Positions 3,449 through 35,735 of a stretch of DNA of 41,171 nucleotides are shown in pieces; within the stretch, counting starts at the first letter, position 1, and each line of letters starts with the position of its first letter. Below the pieces are notes generated by a model. The model was not told the origin of the DNA. It ran no database searches and saw nothing but the letters and a program-made list of their open reading frames with translations. The translations under genes were made by a program, and so were the position numbers. This DNA is from a virus (taxonomy: Duplodnaviria; Heunggongvirae; Uroviricota; Caudoviricetes): IMG/VR virus record IMGVR_UViG_2778261424_000010, positions 1-41,171 of that record. One strand, given 5' to 3'.

Positions 3449-4420
3449 TCAGTAATGAATTTTCGCGCAGGGGATCAGGTCATCTTTCAGAGCGGTAAGC
3501 ACTTCGATAGCCTGCTCGCGGGTTAAGCTGGTTTGGCTGGTGAGCGCGTTAACGATGTTGGTGCCGACCGTCTTGCGGTGCTTAACGTCAGCTTCACGCT
3601 TTGCCTGCTCATCGGCGAGGCGCTTCTCTTCGGCCAGGCGGGCATCTTCGGCCTGTTTGGCCTTCAGGCGCTCGGCTTCAACCGCCGCGGCTTTTTCGCG
3701 TTCCGCCCTGGCTTCCGCTTCCTGCTTCTCGCGATCTGCACGCTGTTCCGCTTCGACGCGCTGGCGCTCCGCCAGTTCAGCGCGGGCTTTCTCTTCGGCT
3801 TCACGGCGCGCTGCGGCTTCAATCTCCGCTTTGTGCTTCGCTTCGGCATCGCGGCGGGCTTGTTCTGCCGCTTCCTGTTTCAGCCGCTCATCACGTTCAC
3901 GCTGAGCCTGTTCCGCCAGACGGCGCTGCTCTTCGCGGTCACGGTCAAAATCCTTGTTCATCAGTAGAGCCATTTCGTGGTCCGCTTCGAACTTGGCAGC
4001 CAGCTCCTGATCGAACCTGATGTTCATCTCCAGCGCTTCGGCGTGCATCGCGTTCATGGCTTCTTCAGCCTTAATGCGTTCCTGCTCGGCTTCCCATTCG
4101 GTGAGTGGGCGGCGGGTCGCATCGCGCAGCTCGTCGCAGGCATCAACGAATCGCTTAATTTCGGCCTCAGCCGGACGCACAGCCTCTTTCAGGCGCTTCA
4201 GGTACTCACGGCCCGGCTTTTCGATTGCCGTCTTGCTGCGGGACACCTGCGCTGCCAGAGAGGCAACACGGTCACGGCCTTTCTTCGTGGACAGGTCCGG
4301 CACTTCGTTTACAGCCTGGCGGATTTGCTCAAGGTACGCGTCAAGGCCGCCCGCTACGTAAAGCACTGGGGCCTGTTCCGGCTTGATTTCGATGACAGTT
4401 AAGTCCGTTACTTCGCTCAT
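3449..4420 (-). CDS. Hypothetical protein with long charged coiled-coil (E/A/R/K-rich) region
   Basis: 323-aa ORF; central region is low-complexity AEEKARAELAERQR-type repeats; opposite strand shows multiple shadow ORFs. Confidence 0.5.
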   Translation of the reverse strand: MSEVTDLTVIEIKPEQAPVLYVAGGLDAYLEQIRQAVNEVPDLSTKKGRDRVASLAAQVSRSKTAIEKPGREYLKRLKEAVRPAEAEIKRFVDACDELRDATRRPLTEWEAEQERIKAEEAMNAMHAEALEMNIRFDQELAAKFEADHEMALLMNKDFDRDREEQRRLAEQAQRERDERLKQEAAEQARRDAEAKHKAEIEAAARREAEEKARAELAERQRVEAEQRADREKQEAEARAEREKAAAVEAERLKAKQAEDARLAEEKRLADEQAKREADVKHRKTVGTNIVNALTSQTSLTREQAIEVLTALKDDLIPCAKIHY

Positions 4421-4816: not shown

Positions 4817-4956
4817 GATTTCCTCTTGGCCTTATCGCGGCGAACGGAACGGTTAATACAAGACTTCAACGCATTTATTCAGTGTTTCAATGGGCGGTGG
4901 ATGGCCGCCGGTTGTCATAAATGGGCAGACTCGAAAATCTGCCTATGTATGGCCGA

Positions 4957-4977
4957 TAAAAAACCCGCCGGAGCGGG
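4957..4977 (-). terminator. Rho-independent terminator downstream of orphan 222-aa gene
   Basis: Minus-strand hairpin CCCGCTCCGGCGGG followed by U-tract (plus strand AAAAAACCCGCCGGAGCGGG). Confidence 0.55.
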
Positions 4978-5646
4978 TCATTCATTCTTTGGTATGCCGC
5001 AAAGGGCGTTTAGCGTTTCAACGGGAATGGCAAGTGCGGTGCTGGTCGCTTCACGGCGTTCCACCTCAGGCAAATATGGCACTGCCTCAGGCCACATCTC
5101 AGCCAGTTTTTTAACAGTTGAGACTTTGGTTAGAGCACCTTTAACCTGCAATTGGAAGGCATCAACTTCATCGTAAAGAACGTTGATGGTTACCGTCGAT
5201 TCAGTGAGTCGGTCGTGTAATTTTCCAACTTTCTTCAGCGTGCTGTAACTTTCAGGAACGAAACCCGAATCAATTACAGGCGCGAAGGAAGCTCCGAAGA
5301 ACAGGTCGCTTTCAAGATCGTGCTTACCAATATGTTTTCCACGGTGGCGATAGCGATGATCCAAACCGTTCCTGGCTAATTCGTGATACTCACCATTAAT
5401 AATGACCTTTAAAATTGCAGTTTTAGCGCCGACCTTCATCTTGATGAAGGAGTTATCTTTGAAATCTTCCCGAGCCTTAGTTATTTGCTCATCGCTAGTG
5501 TTTTCCTGCTTGAGCAATGCCTGTCGAATTTCTTCAACAATTTTCGCCCTCTCATTAACCGCAGCTTTCGCTTTCTCAAACAATGGGGATGCGAGAAGCA
5601 GGTTATGGCATAGCTGATTTTTAATTTCGTTGTTAAGACGAATCAT
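4978..5646 (-). CDS. Orphan 222-aa protein of unknown function in immunity-region accessory slot (candidate exclusion/defence gene)
   Basis: First ORF leftward of OL-like operators; SD GAGGGT upstream of ATG; followed by terminator; soluble, not Arg-rich; R-x4-H spacing (RNGLDH) present. Confidence 0.6.
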   Translation of the reverse strand: MIRLNNEIKNQLCHNLLLASPLFEKAKAAVNERAKIVEEIRQALLKQENTSDEQITKAREDFKDNSFIKMKVGAKTAILKVIINGEYHELARNGLDHRYRHRGKHIGKHDLESDLFFGASFAPVIDSGFVPESYSTLKKVGKLHDRLTESTVTINVLYDEVDAFQLQVKGALTKVSTVKKLAEMWPEAVPYLPEVERREATSTALAIPVETLNALCGIPKNE

Positions 5647-5692: not shown

Positions 5693-5722
5693 TGGTGGAG
5701 TGCTACGGATTCGAACCGAAGT
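5693..5722 (-). other. tRNA 3'-end-like fragment (T-arm GGTTCGAATCC plus ...CTCCACCA); no complete tRNA
   Basis: Minus-strand reads ACTTCGGTTCGAATCCGTAGCACTCCACCA; no matching 5' acceptor strand found within 80 nt. Confidence 0.3.
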
Positions 5723-5918
5723 TTTCATGGGTGATCAGTCCATGCAGGCCCAGCCACACCCCATTACAAAACATTCCAGTTACGCACCATTGCCGCTCTC
5801 CCTGAGCCCGCCGGGCGTCCGACGCATGGTTTACTGTCGCGCCGTTCGACTGACCGAATCTCCACTTCGCCGCTGGCTAACTTCGCTCAGCTGTCGATGT
5901 TTCGTTTCGATGGGGTAA

Positions 5919-12323: not shown

Positions 12324-12761
12324 CTAAGATGGTCTGTATGTAACAACCACCCCTAACTTACTGCCTACCGCATTGAGAGAATTAGAAATAGTTGTATAGG
12401 TTTCTTTGGGGGTGGTGTTTCTTCCTTCTTCTAAAATAGACGCAATAAGATTCAGATTCCACGAGGCCTTAAGGACATCTTTGTATCGAGGAAGGAGACG
12501 TAAAGTAGCCAACATTCCATACAAGGGTATGGCATTAGATTTTGACAACAGCAAAGCTGACGCCTGTTTGATTTCGTTTATTACTTCGCTTTTCGCATTG
12601 ATGCTAAGGATTTTATTTTGCTCACGCAGGAGAATGGCCGAAACCATCCCCAAATGTTCCTTGAATGAAATGTAAGGATCAAGCATGGATTTTACAAATA
12701 TCTGACCCAACACAAACACTGAAACACCAGTAATGACGGTAGTAAACACCCCATTATTCAT
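12324..12761 (-). CDS. Antisense cargo gene: N-terminally membrane-anchored 145-aa protein, unknown function
   Basis: AT-rich ORF on opposite strand to flanking nin genes; N-terminal TM VFTTVITGVSVFVLGQIFV. Confidence 0.5.
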   Translation of the reverse strand: MNNGVFTTVITGVSVFVLGQIFVKSMLDPYISFKEHLGMVSAILLREQNKILSINAKSEVINEIKQASALLLSKSNAIPLYGMLATLRLLPRYKDVLKASWNLNLIASILEEGRNTTPKETYTTISNSLNAVGSKLGVVVTYRPS

Positions 12762-19125: not shown

Positions 19126-19599
19126 ATGGCTGCATTAAAACCTGATGTGAAAGCCTTCATCATTCAGTCGCTTGCGTGCTATGACACGCCGACGCAGGTG
19201 GTTGAGGCTGTCCAAAAAGAATTCGGGATCAAGATCACCCGCCAGCAGGCTGAATCTCACGACCCCACGAAGGCCAGCGGTAAGACGCTCGCCAAAAAGT
19301 GGATCGAGATGTTCCACGCTACGCGCGAACGGTTCCTGACCGAAACCAGCGACATTCCGATCGCGAACAAATCCTATCGCCTCCGCGTGCTTGACCGCAT
19401 GGCAACCAAAACCGAGGGGATGAAAAACTTCTCCCTGACGGCGCAGCTGATTGAACAGGCCGCGAAAGAGGTTGGCGACGCTTACACCAATAAGCTGAAG
19501 GTTGAAAGCACTGGCAAGGATGGCGGCCCGATCAAGACCGAGACGACCAACCTCACCGCAGATCAGGCCGCAGAGATTTACCGCAAGATGATGGGGTGA
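19126..19599 (+). CDS. Putative terminase small subunit
   Basis: 157-aa ORF upstream of large terminase; assignment by position. Confidence 0.4.
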   Translation: MAALKPDVKAFIIQSLACYDTPTQVVEAVQKEFGIKITRQQAESHDPTKASGKTLAKKWIEMFHATRERFLTETSDIPIANKSYRLRVLDRMATKTEGMKNFSLTAQLIEQAAKEVGDAYTNKLKVESTGKDGGPIKTETTNLTADQAAEIYRKMMG

Positions 19600-19624
19600 T
19601 AGCCGCATGTTGCGGCTATGGATT

Positions 19625-19837
19625 CTAGGCTTGTTTTGGTCGAGTAATACGGCCAAGAGCTTTAATTGCAGCGACTTTGACGTTGTGATTTAGATCCGAA
19701 GATAAATCAAGTAAGCGATTTACATGAGCTGGCGTTGCTGAAGCACTCTCGCCGAGAGCATAAATTGCAGACAATTTTACTTCGTTGTTAAGGTCGTTGG
19801 TTAATTCCAACAACTTAGCGCTAACTGCTGGTGTCAT
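19625..19837 (-). CDS. Antisense cargo gene: 70-aa protein of two HEAT-like repeats
   Basis: ATG with AGGAGG SD 5 nt upstream; repeats LLELTNDLNNEVKLSAIYALGE and LLDLSSDLNHNVKVAAIKALGRI; AT-rich. Confidence 0.5.
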   Translation of the reverse strand: MTPAVSAKLLELTNDLNNEVKLSAIYALGESASATPAHVNRLLDLSSDLNHNVKVAAIKALGRITRPKQA

Positions 19838-19908
19838 AAAACCTCCTGTAATTGGTACATAAACAATATCAACTTTGTTACGCAAAAACTCAATGCCTGG
19901 AATTGTTT

Positions 19909-21531
19909 ATGCCTCTTCCGTTTGAATTCGATTTCAGAAACCCTGATTACCAGATGGTTTTTGAATGGCGGATGGAGCGCTTACAGCGCATTCGCCAGAA
20001 CCCTGAAATGCTACCAGCGCTAAAGCAGTTTTATCGCACCAACCCGGCACAGTTCATCATCGACTGGGGTATGACTACTGACCCGCGTAACATCGATTAT
20101 GGCCTGCCGGTCACCATCCCTTTTCTGCTGTTCCCGAAACAGGAAGAGTGGATTCACTGGATCATGGAGCGGCGCGAACGACTGGAGAACGGCATCACCG
20201 AAAAGAGCCGCGAAATGGGGCTCAGTTGGACCGCGATCGGGCTGGCCTGCTCGCTTTGTCTCTTCAACAAAGAAATGGTTATCGGTTTCGGCTCCCGTAA
20301 AGAGGAATACGTCGACAGCACCGGTGACCCGAAGGCGCTGTTCTGGAAGGCGCGAAAGTTCGTGGAAACACTGCCCATCGAGTTTCGTGGTTCGTGGGAC
20401 GAGAAGAAGCATGCGCCGTATATGCGCGTTGAGTTTCCAGATACTGGCGCGGTTATCAAAGGCGAGGCTGGCGACAATATCGGACGTGGTGACCGTACCA
20501 CGCTCTACCTAGTGGATGAAGCTGCATTCCTCCAGCGTCCTCTGTTGATTGATGCGGCGCTGTCGCAAACCACCCGTTGCCGTATTGACCTGAGCTCGGT
20601 TAATGGCATGGCGAACCCGTTCGCGCAGAAGCGCCACGGCGGAAAGATACCAGTATTCACGTTCCACTGGCGAGATGACCCGCGCAAGGATGAAGAGTGG
20701 TATCGCAGGGAGTGCGAGAAAATCGACAATCCGGTGGTGGTGGCGCAGGAACTTGACCTGAACTACAGCGCATCTGCGGAAGGCGTCCTGATCCCGTCCG
20801 ACTGGGTACAGGCTGCCGTCGACGCGCATATCAAACTTGGTATTCAGCCAACGGGCAAGCGACTGGGCGCGATGGACGTCGCCGACGAAGGCCGGGACAA
20901 AAATGCCTTTTCGACCCGTCACGGCTTCCTTCTGGAGAACGTGCGTGAATGGTCCGGCGTTGGCAGCGACATTTACCAGTCTGTTGAGAAGGTCTTCGGC
21001 TTTTGCGAACAGGACAACCTCGAAGAGTTTCGCTTCGACGAGGACGGCCTGGGTGCTGGCGTTCGCGGCGATGCGCGCGCCATCAACGAACTGCGTTACG
21101 CAGCGCGCCGACCGTCAATACTCGCCACACCGTTTCGTGGTAGCGGCGCGGTATTTGATCCGGACGATGAAGCGGTGCGCGGGGACAACGGACAGGCCGC
21201 ACGCCTGAACAAGGACTTCTTCGCCAACGCCAAGGCCCAGAGCTGGTGGTGGCTACGCAAGCTTTTCCAGAACACCTATCGCGCCGTGGTTGAGGGCATG
21301 GCCTACAACCCGGACGAAATCATCTCAATCAGCAGCGCCATGGCGAGCAAAGACAAACTCATCATTGAGCTGTCGCAGCCGACCTACTCCATTAATGGCG
21401 TGGGGAAAATCGTTGTTGATAAACAGCCTGATGGCACCAAGTCGCCGAACCTCGCCGACTCGGTGATGATCAGCTACGCGCCAATGAATTCAGCCCTGAA
21501 CATCTGGGAGCTGCTAGGGAGACAGGCCTGA
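19909..21531 (+). CDS. Terminase large subunit
   Basis: about 540-aa ORF with ATPase and nuclease regions (LYLVDEAAF…); ORF track begins at upstream TTG 19852. Confidence 0.85.
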
Positions 21532-35076: not shown

Positions 35077-35421
35077 GTGAGACATTTACTTTGCACTGTT
35101 ACCGTGTTCGCGGTGCTTATATCAGCACCCGCTTTTGCGGATCAGCAATGTGGTGATTTTAAAATCCATTGGGCAGATGATGGCTTAGCCAGAATCAATG
35201 GCGCAAAGCCAGAAATGCAAAAAATCACCTTCCTGAAAAACAAAGGCGATTATAACAATATCAAGATGGATTGGCGTATGGCTACCGATCAGCCTGGAAG
35301 ATGGGTTGGTCTTGAGTACATCAATCGAAACGGCAAAGCCATTCTCAACGCACAGTGGTTGCAAGCCAGCATGGATTCGCCGCGTCAGTATGCAACATAC
35401 GACTGCCGAAAAGTAAAATAG
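35077..35421 (+). CDS. Cargo gene: secreted/periplasmic 114-aa protein with Sec signal peptide
   Basis: GTG start after GAGGTGGGG; signal peptide MRHLLCTVTVFAVLISAPAFA|DQQ; two Cys; AT-rich. Confidence 0.5.
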   Translation: MRHLLCTVTVFAVLISAPAFADQQCGDFKIHWADDGLARINGAKPEMQKITFLKNKGDYNNIKMDWRMATDQPGRWVGLEYINRNGKAILNAQWLQASMDSPRQYATYDCRKVK

Positions 35422-35439
35422 CCCGCCAGATAGGCGGGC
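35411..35439 (-). terminator. Rho-independent terminator for minus-strand cargo gene
   Basis: GCCCGCC-AGATAG-GCGGGC hairpin with U-tract on minus strand. Confidence 0.45.
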
Positions 35440-35444
35440 ATGCG

Positions 35445-35735
35445 TCAAAAATATTGAGCTTTAATTATAATAAACACAATAATTACGAACAGGATGTTTC
35501 TAATTATTTTTTGCTTATGAGTAAGTTGTTTTTTTTCTGTCGATTTCCCGGGAGAGTAAAGGTTAGTGGTATGCGACAGCCCCGTGCCGGGAAGGCCATT
35601 TGTCATCTTTACGCCTTTTTTTCCGATGTTAATGGTGGAACCTTTACCACCAATTGAAGTGCTTACTCCGCTTTTACTAATGTTGATCGCGAGTCCGGGC
35701 GCAATCCGGATTCTTTTACGAAATCTAAATCCCAT
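35445..35735 (-). CDS. Cargo gene: DUF4236-like small protein with C-terminal hydrophobic anchor
   Basis: MGFRFRKRIRIAPGLAINISKSGVSTSIGGKG N-terminus (DUF4236-like by memory); C-terminal ILFVIIVFIIIKAQYF; very AT-rich. Confidence 0.5.
   Translation of the reverse strand: MGFRFRKRIRIAPGLAINISKSGVSTSIGGKGSTINIGKKGVKMTNGLPGTGLSHTTNLYSPGKSTEKKQLTHKQKIIRNILFVIIVFIIIKAQYF

What the first reader, a model, noticed from the sequence alone, without database searches (positions are those of the whole stretch)
19625..19837. Antisense 70-aa two-HEAT-repeat mini-protein inserted between the terminase subunit genes
An AT-rich minus-strand gene with a near-ideal AGGAGG SD sits between the putative small and large terminase genes. 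It encodes two tandem PBS-lyase/HEAT-like repeats (LLELTNDLNNEVKLSAIYALGE and LLDLSSDLNHNVKVAAIKALGRI). A free-standing two-repeat HEAT protein is unusual and the location inside the packaging module is atypical; it may be a protein-binding decoy acting on a host or phage target.
Basis: partly seen in the sequence, partly recalled or inferred. Interest (0 to 1): 0.55.

Follow-up and report, generated by a model that had tools for sequence, protein, structure and literature searches.

The report
Mini HEAT-repeat accessory gene between terminase genes
A real, conserved 70-residue gene for a minimal two-repeat HEAT protein lies backwards between the two DNA-packaging genes of an E. coli prophage; it is an optional add-on cassette from an uncharacterised family found only on enterobacterial prophages and on more than 1,200 IncI conjugative plasmids, and its binding partner is unknown.

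Summary
The ORF at 19625-19837 (-) has an AGGAGG 4 nt before its ATG and encodes a 70-aa, four-helix, two-repeat HEAT protein (Pfam HEAT_2 E=1.7e-8; AlphaFold pLDDT 92; best structural matches are artificial alphaRep binders).

It is a 309-bp low-GC cassette placed exactly between the terS stop and the terL start. Of 342 complete E. coli genomes with this junction, 337 have the empty form (TGA-TC-ATG). So does phage Omnitron, whose TerL is 100% identical. The gene is therefore dispensable for packaging.

The protein is not a one-off. At least 139 clusters of 66-72-aa relatives exist, all in Enterobacterales mobile elements.
- In prophages the gene is always antisense to the late operon and head-to-head with a terminase gene.
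- It is also present in about 1,215 IncI plasmids next to excA, where it alternates with hha in the same slot.
- The plasmid copy still carries a relic of a terS 5' end, so it came from a phage.

dN/dS is 0.04-0.25. Residues at the alphaRep "binding" positions (Y26, E30, K59, R63) and R66 are conserved across the family.

Best reading: a moron expressed in the carrier state that binds a conserved host or invader protein, not the phage's own terminase. The target is unknown and no literature was found. Interest is moderate.

The parts
19126..19599 (+). Small terminase-type gene (DUF2280, 157 aa); left flank of the cassette. Its last ~30 codons (19510-19599) encode a tail, ...GKDGGPIKTETTNLT..AAEIYRKMMG*, shared by unrelated TerS families that pair with this TerL type.
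   Evidence: Pfam PF10045 E=9e-50; PGAP annotation; conserved tail.
19599..19619 (.). Perfect 9-bp stem / 3-nt loop hairpin between the convergent terS and HEAT genes. It starts at the last base of the terS stop codon. Likely 3' end or stability element of the HEAT transcript; there is no U-tract on the minus strand.
   Evidence: RNA fold dG -13.3 kcal/mol, z=-5.8, 0 of 200 shuffles as good. Most relatives inspected (Yersinia, Salmonella, Pantoea, IncI, E. soli, Citrobacter) have a GC-rich hairpin after the stop, some with T-runs; none was obvious in Proteus or NG54.
19600..19908 (.). The inserted cassette (309 bp, GC 0.41). In relatives without it, the terS stop and terL start are separated by only 'TC'.
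   Evidence: Alignment with the empty site of ECONIH5 and with a filled site carrying a different TerS; 337 of 342 E. coli genomes are empty; phage Omnitron is empty; GC.
19625..19837 (-). CDS of the 70-aa two-repeat HEAT protein. Helices 3-12, 18-29, 36-45, 51-65. Family-conserved residues Y26, E30, K59, R63, R66.
   Evidence: dN/dS 0.04-0.25.
19842..19847 (-). Shine-Dalgarno AGGAGG, 4 nt upstream of the ATG at 19837.
   Evidence: Strong SDs (AAGGAGG, AGGAGG, AAGGAG) at the same place in Yersinia, Salmonella, Proteus and NG54 relatives.
19865..19893 (-). Inferred sigma-70-like promoter of the HEAT gene: TTGAGT (19893-19888), 17 nt, GATATT (19870-19865). It lies in the 71-nt spacer shared with the divergent terL start, and its -35 is 15 nt from the terL ATG.
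   Evidence: 8 of 12 consensus matches. The same TTGAnn-17-nATATT at the same distance (27-29 nt from the ATG) occurs in Yersinia and Salmonella relatives although the spacer is otherwise unconserved. The stricter built-in scan (9 of 12) found nothing. Inference only.
19909..21531 (+). Large terminase (540 aa); right flank, divergent from the HEAT gene. In cassette swaps the first ~33 nt of terL travel with the cassette.
   Evidence: PHROG 2 E=2.4e-31; PGAP 'TerL protein'; 99.8% identical to the TerL of an empty-site prophage and 100% to phage Omnitron; swap boundary.

Best explanation
The region is a moron: a self-contained accessory cassette of inferred promoter, strong SD, 70-codon ORF and hairpin. 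It is inserted exactly between the stop of terS and the start of terL of a mosaic lambdoid prophage with a SEN34-like head module.

It encodes a minimal two-repeat, alphaRep/PBS-type HEAT protein from a family confined to mobile elements of Enterobacterales.

Proposed mechanism, with status of each step.
1. The gene is transcribed from its own promoter against the direction of late transcription. It would therefore be made in the lysogen or plasmid-carrying state and be shut down by head-on late transcription after induction (inferred).
2. The product is a soluble four-helix module (shown by prediction).
3. It acts by binding one conserved partner through a face carrying Y26, E30, K59, R63 and R66 (inferred from conservation).
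4. It is not part of the packaging machine (shown by presence/absence).
5. The same family is kept under purifying selection on IncI plasmids that have no terminase. HEAT alleles 62% identical also sit between terminase genes that are 98-99% identical. The partner is therefore most likely a conserved host protein, or a protein of an invading element, and not the phage's own terminase (inferred).

The identity of the partner and the phenotype are unknown.
For: Cassette nature:
- The insert spans exactly 19600-19908. The empty site reads TGA-TC-ATG.
- Only 5 of 342 E. coli genomes with this junction carry it, that is 5 of 5,426 complete genomes. A second allele is present in 2 more.
- The TerL of an empty-site prophage is 99.8% identical, and that of the isolated phage Omnitron 100% identical with an empty junction.
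- GC is 0.41 against 0.55-0.57 in the flanks.
- There is a hairpin after the stop and a positionally conserved promoter-like element.
- The same cassette occurs with a different TerS family (window against Z1322), and more divergent alleles occur in the same slot with a third.

Protein:
- HEAT_2 E=1.7e-8; pLDDT 92; alphaRep matches; dN/dS 0.04-0.25.

Family and contexts:
- 139 clusters, nearly all 66-72 aa, Enterobacterales only.
- In all 26 IMG/VR loci and all other prophage loci scored, every identified late-gene neighbour is in the opposite orientation. The gene is head-to-head with terL (65-74 nt) or terS, directly or behind one further same-strand ORF.
- 1,215 plasmids, 1,201 of them conjugative and IncI-typed where inspected, carry a sister clade next to excA.
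- A relic of a terS 5' end lies upstream of the gene in Citrobacter prophages and IncI plasmids.

Conserved surface:
- E30 99%, R63 98%, R66 93%, K59 80% and Y26 78% across 87 sequences. Y26, E30, K59 and R63 fall at positions corresponding to those I recall as randomised in alphaRep libraries; R66 lies just after the second ALG motif.

No co-variation with the phage's own terminase:
- L046 has flanks 98-99% identical to Z1322, but its HEAT protein is 62% identical to the window protein (which differs from the Z1322 protein at one residue). There is no blastn similarity to Z1322 across the cassette.
Against: - No expression data were found. The promoter is only an 8 of 12 match, and the built-in scan found none.
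- The hairpin lacks a U-tract on the HEAT strand.
- No partner was identified and no phenotype is known.
- The strict head-to-head association with terminase genes of four different families could mean a functional link to packaging instead of a module-boundary effect.
- Absence from all 50,697 deposited phage genomes is unexplained.
- Two HEAT repeats give a small binding face. The protein may need to oligomerise or to stack on another repeat protein.
Confidence: 0.6

Rival explanations
1. Packaging interference (TerI-like superinfection exclusion). The lysogen-expressed mini-HEAT protein binds a terminase component of competing phages and blocks their DNA packaging. One candidate is the conserved C-terminal TerS tail ...AAEAYRKMMG that docks TerS to this TerL type. 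The resident phage would escape because late transcription runs head-on through the gene and silences it after induction.
For: - The gene is head-to-head with terminase genes in every prophage context, across four terminase families.
- It is antisense inside the late operon.
- There is a precedent in Listeria phi10403S. There, a 65-aa protein encoded antisense within lytic genes and transcribed in lysogeny (TerI) blocks packaging by targeting the terminase, and alternative unrelated genes occupy the same slot (bioRxiv 10.1101/2025.02.27.640495).
- A plasmid-borne copy could equally protect its host from phages.
- The family is absent from deposited phage genomes.
Against: - The family's conserved face is the same in clades linked to unrelated terminases and on plasmids. 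The TerS tails differ completely between those terminase families.
- There is no homology evidence linking it to TerI.
- No self-immunity gene is present in the single-gene cassette.
- Module boundaries are generic moron sites, and that alone can explain the position.
Confidence: 0.15
2. Hha-like modulator. The mini-HEAT protein is a functional substitute for Hha. It would bind a nucleoid-associated protein (H-NS/StpA) or another global regulator to tune silencing of the element's own AT-rich or transfer/late genes and lower its cost to the host.
For: - In IncI plasmids the HEAT cassette (459 bp) and an hha cassette (302 bp) are mutually exclusive occupants of the same slot between conserved flanks next to excA.
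- About 303 plasmids have hha at this slot. HEAT is present in 1,215 plasmids in a separate protein search, and the sampled non-hha rows carry it at this slot.
- Both are about 69-aa all-helical cytoplasmic proteins.
- The target must be conserved across Enterobacterales.
Against: - There is no sequence relationship (hhalign probability 1.4%), and the cassettes have opposite orientations.
- Sharing a slot may only mark a recombination hotspot. The same plasmid region also holds pnd, dqlB and finQ.
- No hha was seen at the prophage position.
Confidence: 0.1
3. The element works mainly in cis or as RNA. An antisense transcript or a convergent promoter between terS and terL would damp leaky or late expression of terL through transcriptional interference or RNase III cleavage of the sense-antisense duplex. 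The ORF would be secondary.
For: - The gene is always antisense and its promoter region abuts or overlaps the terminase start.
- The insertion breaks the TGA-TC-ATG translational coupling of terS and terL.
Against: - There is strong purifying selection on the protein (dN/dS 0.04-0.25), with synonymous sites saturated between alleles while the HEAT signature is kept.
- The strong SD is conserved.
- The gene is kept on plasmids, where it is convergent with excA and has no terminase to regulate.
- No Rfam family matches.
Confidence: 0.05
4. Non-functional remnant: a decaying fragment of a longer HEAT-repeat gene, or a chance ORF in a spacer.
For: - The gene is very rare in E. coli chromosomes (7 of 5,426 genomes).
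- No function is known.
Against: - Length is uniform at 66-72 aa, with conserved start and stop, in 139 clusters.
- dN/dS is far below 1.
- The fold is predicted with high confidence.
- The gene is present in about 1,215 plasmids.
Confidence: 0.03

Closest known systems
alphaRep artificial repeat proteins / thermostable PBS-type HEAT-like repeats (e.g. PDB 3LTJ, 4JW2, 4JW3, 8AW4)
   Same: - Same repeat: a helix-turn-helix of about 31-33 residues with the ...D.(D/N)..V(K/R)..A(A/I).ALG.I signature.
- A profile of the family hits alphaReps at E down to 5e-22, with TM 0.78-0.83 and rmsd 1.3-2.3 A.
- alphaReps bind proteins through the face formed by the second helices.
   Different: - Natural, not designed.
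- Only two repeats and no capping repeats.
- The alphaRep hypervariable positions are here conserved across the family (Y26, E30, K59, R63). This implies one fixed partner, not a library of specificities.
Phage morons (accessory transcription units in late operons of lambdoid phages; reviewed in 'The moron comes of age', PMC3594210)
   Same: - Present or absent between near-identical genomes.
- Placed exactly between two genes.
- Deviant base composition.
- Putative own promoter and a hairpin at the 3' end.
- Dispensable for lytic growth.
   Different: - Sits between terS and terL, breaking their translational coupling.
- Antisense orientation is an invariant family trait.
- The same gene family also lives on conjugative plasmids.
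- No phenotype is known.
TerI of Listeria prophage phi10403S (TERi system; bioRxiv 10.1101/2025.02.27.640495)
   Same: - Small (65 aa) protein encoded on the opposite strand inside lytic genes of a prophage.
- In the Listeria case it is constitutively transcribed in lysogeny.
- Its slot holds alternative unrelated genes.
   Different: - Different host phylum and a different position (early module).
- TerI comes with two self-immunity genes.
- Terminase targeting by the HEAT protein is pure conjecture.
Hha/YmoA family (plasmid and chromosomal H-NS co-regulators)
   Same: - About 69-aa helical cytoplasmic protein of mobile elements.
- Occupies the very same slot next to excA in about a fifth of IncI plasmids.
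   Different: Not homologous, a different fold class, opposite gene orientation, and no evidence of H-NS binding.

Membership tests
HEAT repeat proteins (Pfam PF13646 HEAT_2 / PF02985 HEAT) | Significant profile match above the curated threshold | tested here: met
   HEAT_2 35.1 bits against 27.7, E=1.7e-8; HEAT 31.0 against 23.5, two stretches.
HEAT repeat proteins (Pfam PF13646 HEAT_2 / PF02985 HEAT) | Tandem antiparallel helix pairs forming a solenoid | tested here: met
   AlphaFold2 pLDDT 92 with helices 3-12, 18-29, 36-45 and 51-65. Foldseek gives TM about 0.8 to alphaRep HEAT-like structures. The model is a prediction, not a solved structure.
PBS lyase HEAT-like repeat (PF03130) / bilin lyases (CpcE/F, NblB) | Match above threshold to the PBS-lyase repeat or to lyase equivalogs | tested here: not met
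   PF03130 15.6 bits, below 20.9. NCBIfam hits to CpcF, NblB and 'putative lyase' PRK09687 are only 13-20 bits against cut-offs of 200-300. The similarity is in repeat flavour only.
Phage moron | Extra DNA between two adjacent genes of otherwise near-identical phage genomes | tested here: met
   309 bp against 'TC' between the terS stop and the terL start; flanks 99% identical and TerL 99.8-100% identical.
Phage moron | Own promoter and terminator (independent transcription unit) | tested here: inconclusive
   Promoter-like TTGAGT-17-GATATT with 8 of 12 matches, positionally conserved in three genera, but missed by the stricter scan. The 9-bp hairpin has z=-5.8 but no U-tract. Some relatives have clear bidirectional terminators.
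Phage moron | Base composition different from the neighbours | tested here: met
   GC 0.41 against 0.55-0.57; lowest 1.4% of windows.
Phage moron | Expressed from the repressed prophage and conferring a phenotype on the lysogen | not testable with these tools
   No transcriptome or phenotype data were found.
Hha/YmoA family | Sequence or profile homology to Hha | tested here: not met
   hhalign of the pESBL Hha against the family profile gives probability 1.4%. No Pfam HHA hit.
Known anti-phage defence proteins (PADLOC-DB v2) | Specific match to a defence-system component | tested here: not met
   Only a generic repeat match to a 1,972-position HEAT-ARM model (18-27 bits over about 55 residues).
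TerI-like packaging inhibitors (Listeria TERi) | Inhibits DNA packaging by binding the terminase; accompanied by self-immunity genes | not tested
   There is only a layout analogy. The cassette contains a single gene.
Terminase / packaging machinery component | Required and universally present alongside this TerL type | tested here: not met
   Absent from 337 of 342 E. coli prophages with this junction and from the phage Omnitron genome with an identical TerL; SEN34 and vB_EcoM-606R2 match only from inside terL onward.

The most novel reading that the evidence does not exclude
The mini-HEAT proteins are a new class of natural 'mini-binder' used by enterobacterial prophages and IncI plasmids while resident in a cell. 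One version is a TerI-like inhibitor that caps or blocks a terminase component of competing phages. The other is a non-homologous replacement for Hha that plugs into the H-NS silencing system. Either way, the gene would be switched off automatically by head-on late or transfer transcription. This would give a function to a conserved unknown gene carried by most IncI1 resistance plasmids.
Probability: 0.2. Interest if true: 0.7.

Novelty: new variant of a known kind. Interest (0 to 1): 0.45.

Why it matters
The gene itself is already in RefSeq under a generic name, but nothing is known about it.

The analysis shows it belongs to a compact, uncharacterised family that is specific to mobile elements.
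- It is about as small as a HEAT-repeat protein can be.
- It moved from prophages to IncI conjugative plasmids, which are major carriers of ESBL genes in E. coli and Salmonella.
- It is maintained there in more than 1,200 sequenced plasmids under purifying selection.
- It alternates with hha at one locus.

Finding its partner would assign a function to a core-like IncI gene. It could also reveal a new way in which resident elements manipulate the host or exclude competitors. A natural two-repeat alphaRep with a fixed binding face is also of interest to protein engineers.

If it turns out to be a neutral passenger, it remains a clean example of a moron that splits a translationally coupled terS-terL pair without harm.

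Tried and rejected
- A single-sequence search of the 5.8-billion-protein set gave only 7 close relatives. The wider family appeared only after distant members found in species-representative genomes were added to a profile.
- An exhaustive profile search of 1.8 billion representatives was swamped by long multi-repeat HEAT proteins (15,259 hits, the top 150 almost all over 500 aa). It was useless for finding small relatives.
- tblastn of three family members against 50,697 GenBank phage records found no match.
- PHROGs, PADLOC and NCBIfam gave no specific family.
- BFVD viral structures contained no characterised analogue.
- Rfam found nothing in the region or in the window.
- The built-in promoter scan found none.
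- Seven literature searches, using accession numbers and 'HEAT repeat' with IncI1, excA, prophage, moron or pCol1B9, found no paper on this family.
- The pESBL TnSeq paper turned out to concern a plasmid with the hha allele.
- The R64 record was not in the plasmid collection.
- The supplement of the Salmonella 4/74 transcriptome paper held no per-gene data for the plasmid gene.
- A fragment-of-a-larger-gene origin, for example from E. coli YibA, was considered. There is only an approximately 20-bit match to the PRK09687 'putative lyase' model (which I recall as the YibA family), and I saw no YibA structure among the PDB profile hits.
- Co-evolution with the phage's own terminase was considered and rejected because of L046.
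- Neighbours of the gene in other contexts gave no functional clue. These were a 145-159-aa ORF in Citrobacter, an 88-aa membrane ORF and a 94-aa IncI ORF.

Full report
**1. The observation**

The minus-strand ORF 19625-19837 is present as described. It has an ATG at 19837, AGGAGG at 19847-19842 (4 nt upstream) and a TAG stop at 19627-19625. It encodes 70 aa.

It lies between a DUF2280 small-terminase-type gene (19126-19599) and the large terminase (19909-21531). A Phage_portal_3 gene follows. The window is 100% identical here to a prophage of E. coli AR_0118. There, PGAP annotates the ORF as 'HEAT repeat domain-containing protein'. That record uses an 86-aa TTG start that overlaps terL. The SD and every homologue point to the 70-aa form.

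The HEAT assignment is solid.
- HEAT_2 scores 35.1 bits (E=1.7e-8) and HEAT 31 bits, both above their gathering scores.
- The AlphaFold2 model has four helices at mean pLDDT 92.
- Its best PDB matches are artificial alphaRep HEAT-like binders, with TM 0.78-0.83 and rmsd 1.3-2.3 A.
- A family profile hits alphaReps down to E=5e-22.
- The PBS-lyase model itself is below threshold.

**2. It is an inserted cassette**

In 337 of the 342 complete E. coli genomes that share this junction, the terS stop and the terL start are separated by two bases (TGA-TC-ATG). In the window they are separated by 309 bp, 19600-19908.

- The TerL of an empty-site prophage is 99.8% identical to the window's.
- The isolated Citrobacter phage Omnitron has a 100% identical TerL and an empty junction. 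The cassette is therefore dispensable for packaging and lytic growth.
- The insert has GC 0.41 against 0.55-0.57 in the flanks, which puts it in the lowest 1.4% of windows.
- A perfect 9-bp hairpin (19599-19619; dG -13.3, z=-5.8) lies between the convergent terS and HEAT genes. Most relatives inspected have a hairpin at this place, some with T-runs.
- In the 71-nt spacer shared with the divergent terL start there is a TTGAGT-17-GATATT element (19893-19865). It recurs at the same distance from the ATG in Yersinia and Salmonella relatives, although the spacer is otherwise unconserved. It is only an 8 of 12 match, and the stricter built-in scan reported nothing. The promoter is therefore inferred, not shown.
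- No Rfam family matches.

**3. The protein belongs to a family specific to mobile elements**

A single-sequence search found only seven close relatives. Distant copies found in species-representative genomes were then added to a profile. This recovered 139 clusters. Nearly all are 66-72 aa and all named ones come from Enterobacterales: Escherichia, Salmonella, Citrobacter, Enterobacter, Pantoea, Serratia, Proteus, Yersinia, Rahnella, Erwinia and Sodalis.

Three contexts emerged.

(i) A clade 46-100% identical to the window protein. It is always antisense, 65-74 nt head-to-head with the same TerL family. It occurs in E. coli, Salmonella, Yersinia, Proteus and the metagenomic phage NG54, with three unrelated TerS families upstream.

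(ii) A clade 36-45% identical in Citrobacter, Enterobacter and Pantoea prophages. It is antisense between the lysis genes and terS and head-to-head with terS, directly or behind one other moron ORF. These prophages carry three other TerL families.

(iii) A clade 41-43% identical on conjugative plasmids, IncI-typed where inspected. It is tail-to-tail with the entry-exclusion gene excA and occurs in 1,215 of 72,556 plasmid records, including pCol1B9 of S. Typhimurium SL1344.

In all 26 IMG/VR loci and every other prophage locus scored, the identified flanking late genes run in the opposite direction. No member occurs in 50,697 deposited phage genomes.

**4. How the cassette moves**

- Upstream of the gene in Citrobacter prophages there is a decayed copy of a terS 5' end. 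It reads LVLTDKLEMCCCEYLIGLN, against the functional MALTDKQEMFCREYLIDLN of the Enterobacter soli prophage, where the HEAT gene abuts terS (E=1.5e-5).
- The DNA alignment extends this homology to the IncI plasmids (MALTYKQE...). The plasmid copy therefore descends from a prophage cassette that took the start of terS with it.
- In viral contig L046 the flanks are 98-99% identical to E. coli Z1322. The 346 bp from the terS stop to 33 nt inside terL have no blastn similarity, and the encoded HEAT protein is only 62% identical to the window protein. This second allele occurs in two further E. coli genomes.
- Synonymous sites between the alleles are saturated. This is therefore replacement of an old allele by recombination, not rapid local evolution.
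- The junction has at least three states: empty, allele 1 and allele 2.

**5. Selection and surface**

dN/dS is 0.04-0.25 in every informative comparison, in both the phage and the plasmid clades.

Across 87 full-length members the most conserved residues include the structural A/L/G positions. They also include E30 (99%), R63 (98%), R66 (93%), K59 (80%) and Y26 (78%). Aligned to alphaReps, Y26, E30, K59 and R63 fall at consensus positions that, as I recall, are the ones randomised to create binding specificity (own knowledge of the alphaRep design).

The differences between alleles 1 and 2 are mostly conservative (K/R, V/I, L/I, E/D) and leave these positions unchanged. This points to one conserved partner and not to an arms race at the interface.

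**6. What it most likely does**

- Shown: it is an optional, mobile, protein-coding cassette. It encodes a small soluble HEAT module, is not required by the packaging machine, and is maintained by selection in prophages and plasmids.
- Inferred: it is transcribed from its own promoter against late transcription. It would therefore be made in the lysogen and silenced by head-on transcription after induction. It works by binding a conserved partner.
- Plasmids without any terminase keep the gene, and its alleles do not co-vary with the adjacent terminase. The phage's own terminase is therefore an unlikely partner. A conserved host protein, or a protein of invading elements, is more likely. I put 0.6 on this overall reading. 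The moron part is near certain and the partner class is about even odds.

**7. Rivals**

(a) A TerI-like packaging inhibitor of competing phages. In Listeria, a 65-aa antisense-encoded, lysogeny-expressed protein targets the terminase, and its slot hosts alternative genes. The invariable position next to terminase genes fits this. The unrelated terminases and TerS tails across clades and the plasmid clade argue against a terminase-specific face. Confidence 0.15.

(b) An Hha-like modulator. In IncI plasmids a 459-bp HEAT cassette and a 302-bp hha cassette are alternative occupants of one slot between conserved flanks. About 303 plasmids have hha there, and HEAT is present in 1,215 plasmids in a separate search. 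The proteins are unrelated, and the slot lies in a generally variable region. Confidence 0.1.

(c) A cis or antisense-RNA regulator of terL. This is contradicted by the protein-level selection and by the plasmid context. Confidence 0.05.

(d) A remnant or chance ORF. Effectively excluded. Confidence 0.03.

**8. Comparison with what is known, and novelty**

By sequence and predicted fold it is a member of the HEAT-repeat superfamily. It is closest to the PBS/alphaRep type but is not a bilin lyase. By genome anatomy it is a moron. It is not a member of Hha, of any PADLOC defence family, or of any annotated PHROG.

No paper on the family was found. BFVD holds no characterised viral analogue.

I rate it a new variant of a known kind: a moron whose cargo is a minimal HEAT binder shared between prophages and IncI plasmids. 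Interest is moderate (0.45). The gene is real and the family pattern is new and clean. The function is unresolved and the gene is already annotated generically.

**9. Side observations**

- Every TerS that precedes this TerL type ends in the same ~30-residue module...GKDGGPIKTETTNLT..AAEAYRKMMG*. This holds whether the TerS is DUF2280, a 190-aa family or Terminase_2. TerS proteins of other TerL families lack it. It is probably the TerL-docking tail and the left recombination boundary of the cassette.
- Pantoea prophages carry a RelA_SpoT-domain gene next to their HEAT gene.
- The window contains other low-GC probable morons at 12324-12761 (-) and 35077-35735.

Noticed in passing
window 19510-19599 (+); also L002, L004, L006, L022, L032: Three unrelated small-terminase families (DUF2280 157 aa, a 190-aa family, Terminase_2 335-340 aa) that sit upstream of this TerL type all end in the same ~30-aa tail, ...GKDGGPIKTETTNLT..AAEAYRKMMG*. 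TerS proteins paired with other TerL families lack it. It is probably a portable TerL-docking module and the left boundary for module and cassette exchange.
   Followed up: partly
L023 3751-4209 versus L024 3253-3554 (IncI plasmids pEC404/03-2 and pESBL-EA11): In IncI plasmids the mini-HEAT cassette and an hha cassette are mutually exclusive occupants of one slot next to excA, between conserved flanks. About 303 plasmids have hha there. HEAT is present in 1,215 plasmids in a separate search.
   Followed up: yes
L025 ~4930-4990, L007, L008, L023 ~3925-3990 (upstream of the HEAT gene): There is a decayed relic of a terS 5' end (LVLTDKLEMCCCEYLIGLN; MALTYKQE...) upstream of the HEAT gene in Citrobacter prophages and IncI plasmids. 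It shows phage-to-plasmid transfer of the cassette together with its upstream region.
   Followed up: yes
L046 3929-4240; E. coli CAU16175 and EPSSH018: A second, anciently diverged HEAT allele (62% aa identity) sits at the same terS/terL junction between flanks 98-99% identical to those of allele 1. The junction therefore has three states: empty, allele 1 and allele 2.
   Followed up: yes
window 19838-19885 (-); RefSeq WP_136769304.1: PGAP calls an 86-aa version from a TTG at 19885. That ORF runs to 24 nt from the terL ATG and overlaps the alternative TTG-start terL ORF (19852). The SD, the homologues and WP_032214630.1 support the 70-aa ATG start at 19837.
   Followed up: yes
CP115737.1 (Citrobacter phage Omnitron) 20105-20498: An isolated phage with a TerL 100% identical to the window's has the empty junction. 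No member of the mini-HEAT family occurs in any of 50,697 deposited phage genomes, although prophages and plasmids carry it.
   Followed up: partly
L029-L031 5238-6313 (Pantoea prophages): A 348-358-aa RelA_SpoT-domain gene, possibly a CapRel-like toxSAS defence gene, lies tail-to-tail with the HEAT gene in the lysis-terminase gap. This marks the gap as a cargo hotspot.
   Followed up: no
L007 3350-3829, L025 4449-4886 (Citrobacter prophages): A 145-159-aa ORF with no Pfam match precedes the HEAT gene on the same strand, forming a two-gene antisense cassette upstream of terS.
   Followed up: partly
window 12324-12761 (-): A low-GC, antisense 145-aa ORF with no Pfam match lies between a DUF551 gene and ninB. 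It is probably another moron in the nin region.
   Followed up: partly
window 35077-35735: A low-GC island lies inside the tail/baseplate module. It holds a 114-aa ORF with a signal peptide (35077-35421, +) and a convergent 96-aa ORF (35445-35735, -). They are likely further morons.
   Followed up: no
window 5693-5762 (-): ARAGORN calls a tRNA-Ile (GAT) here, but the Rfam gathering-threshold scan of the window reports no tRNA. It may be a false positive or a degenerate tRNA-like sequence.
   Followed up: no
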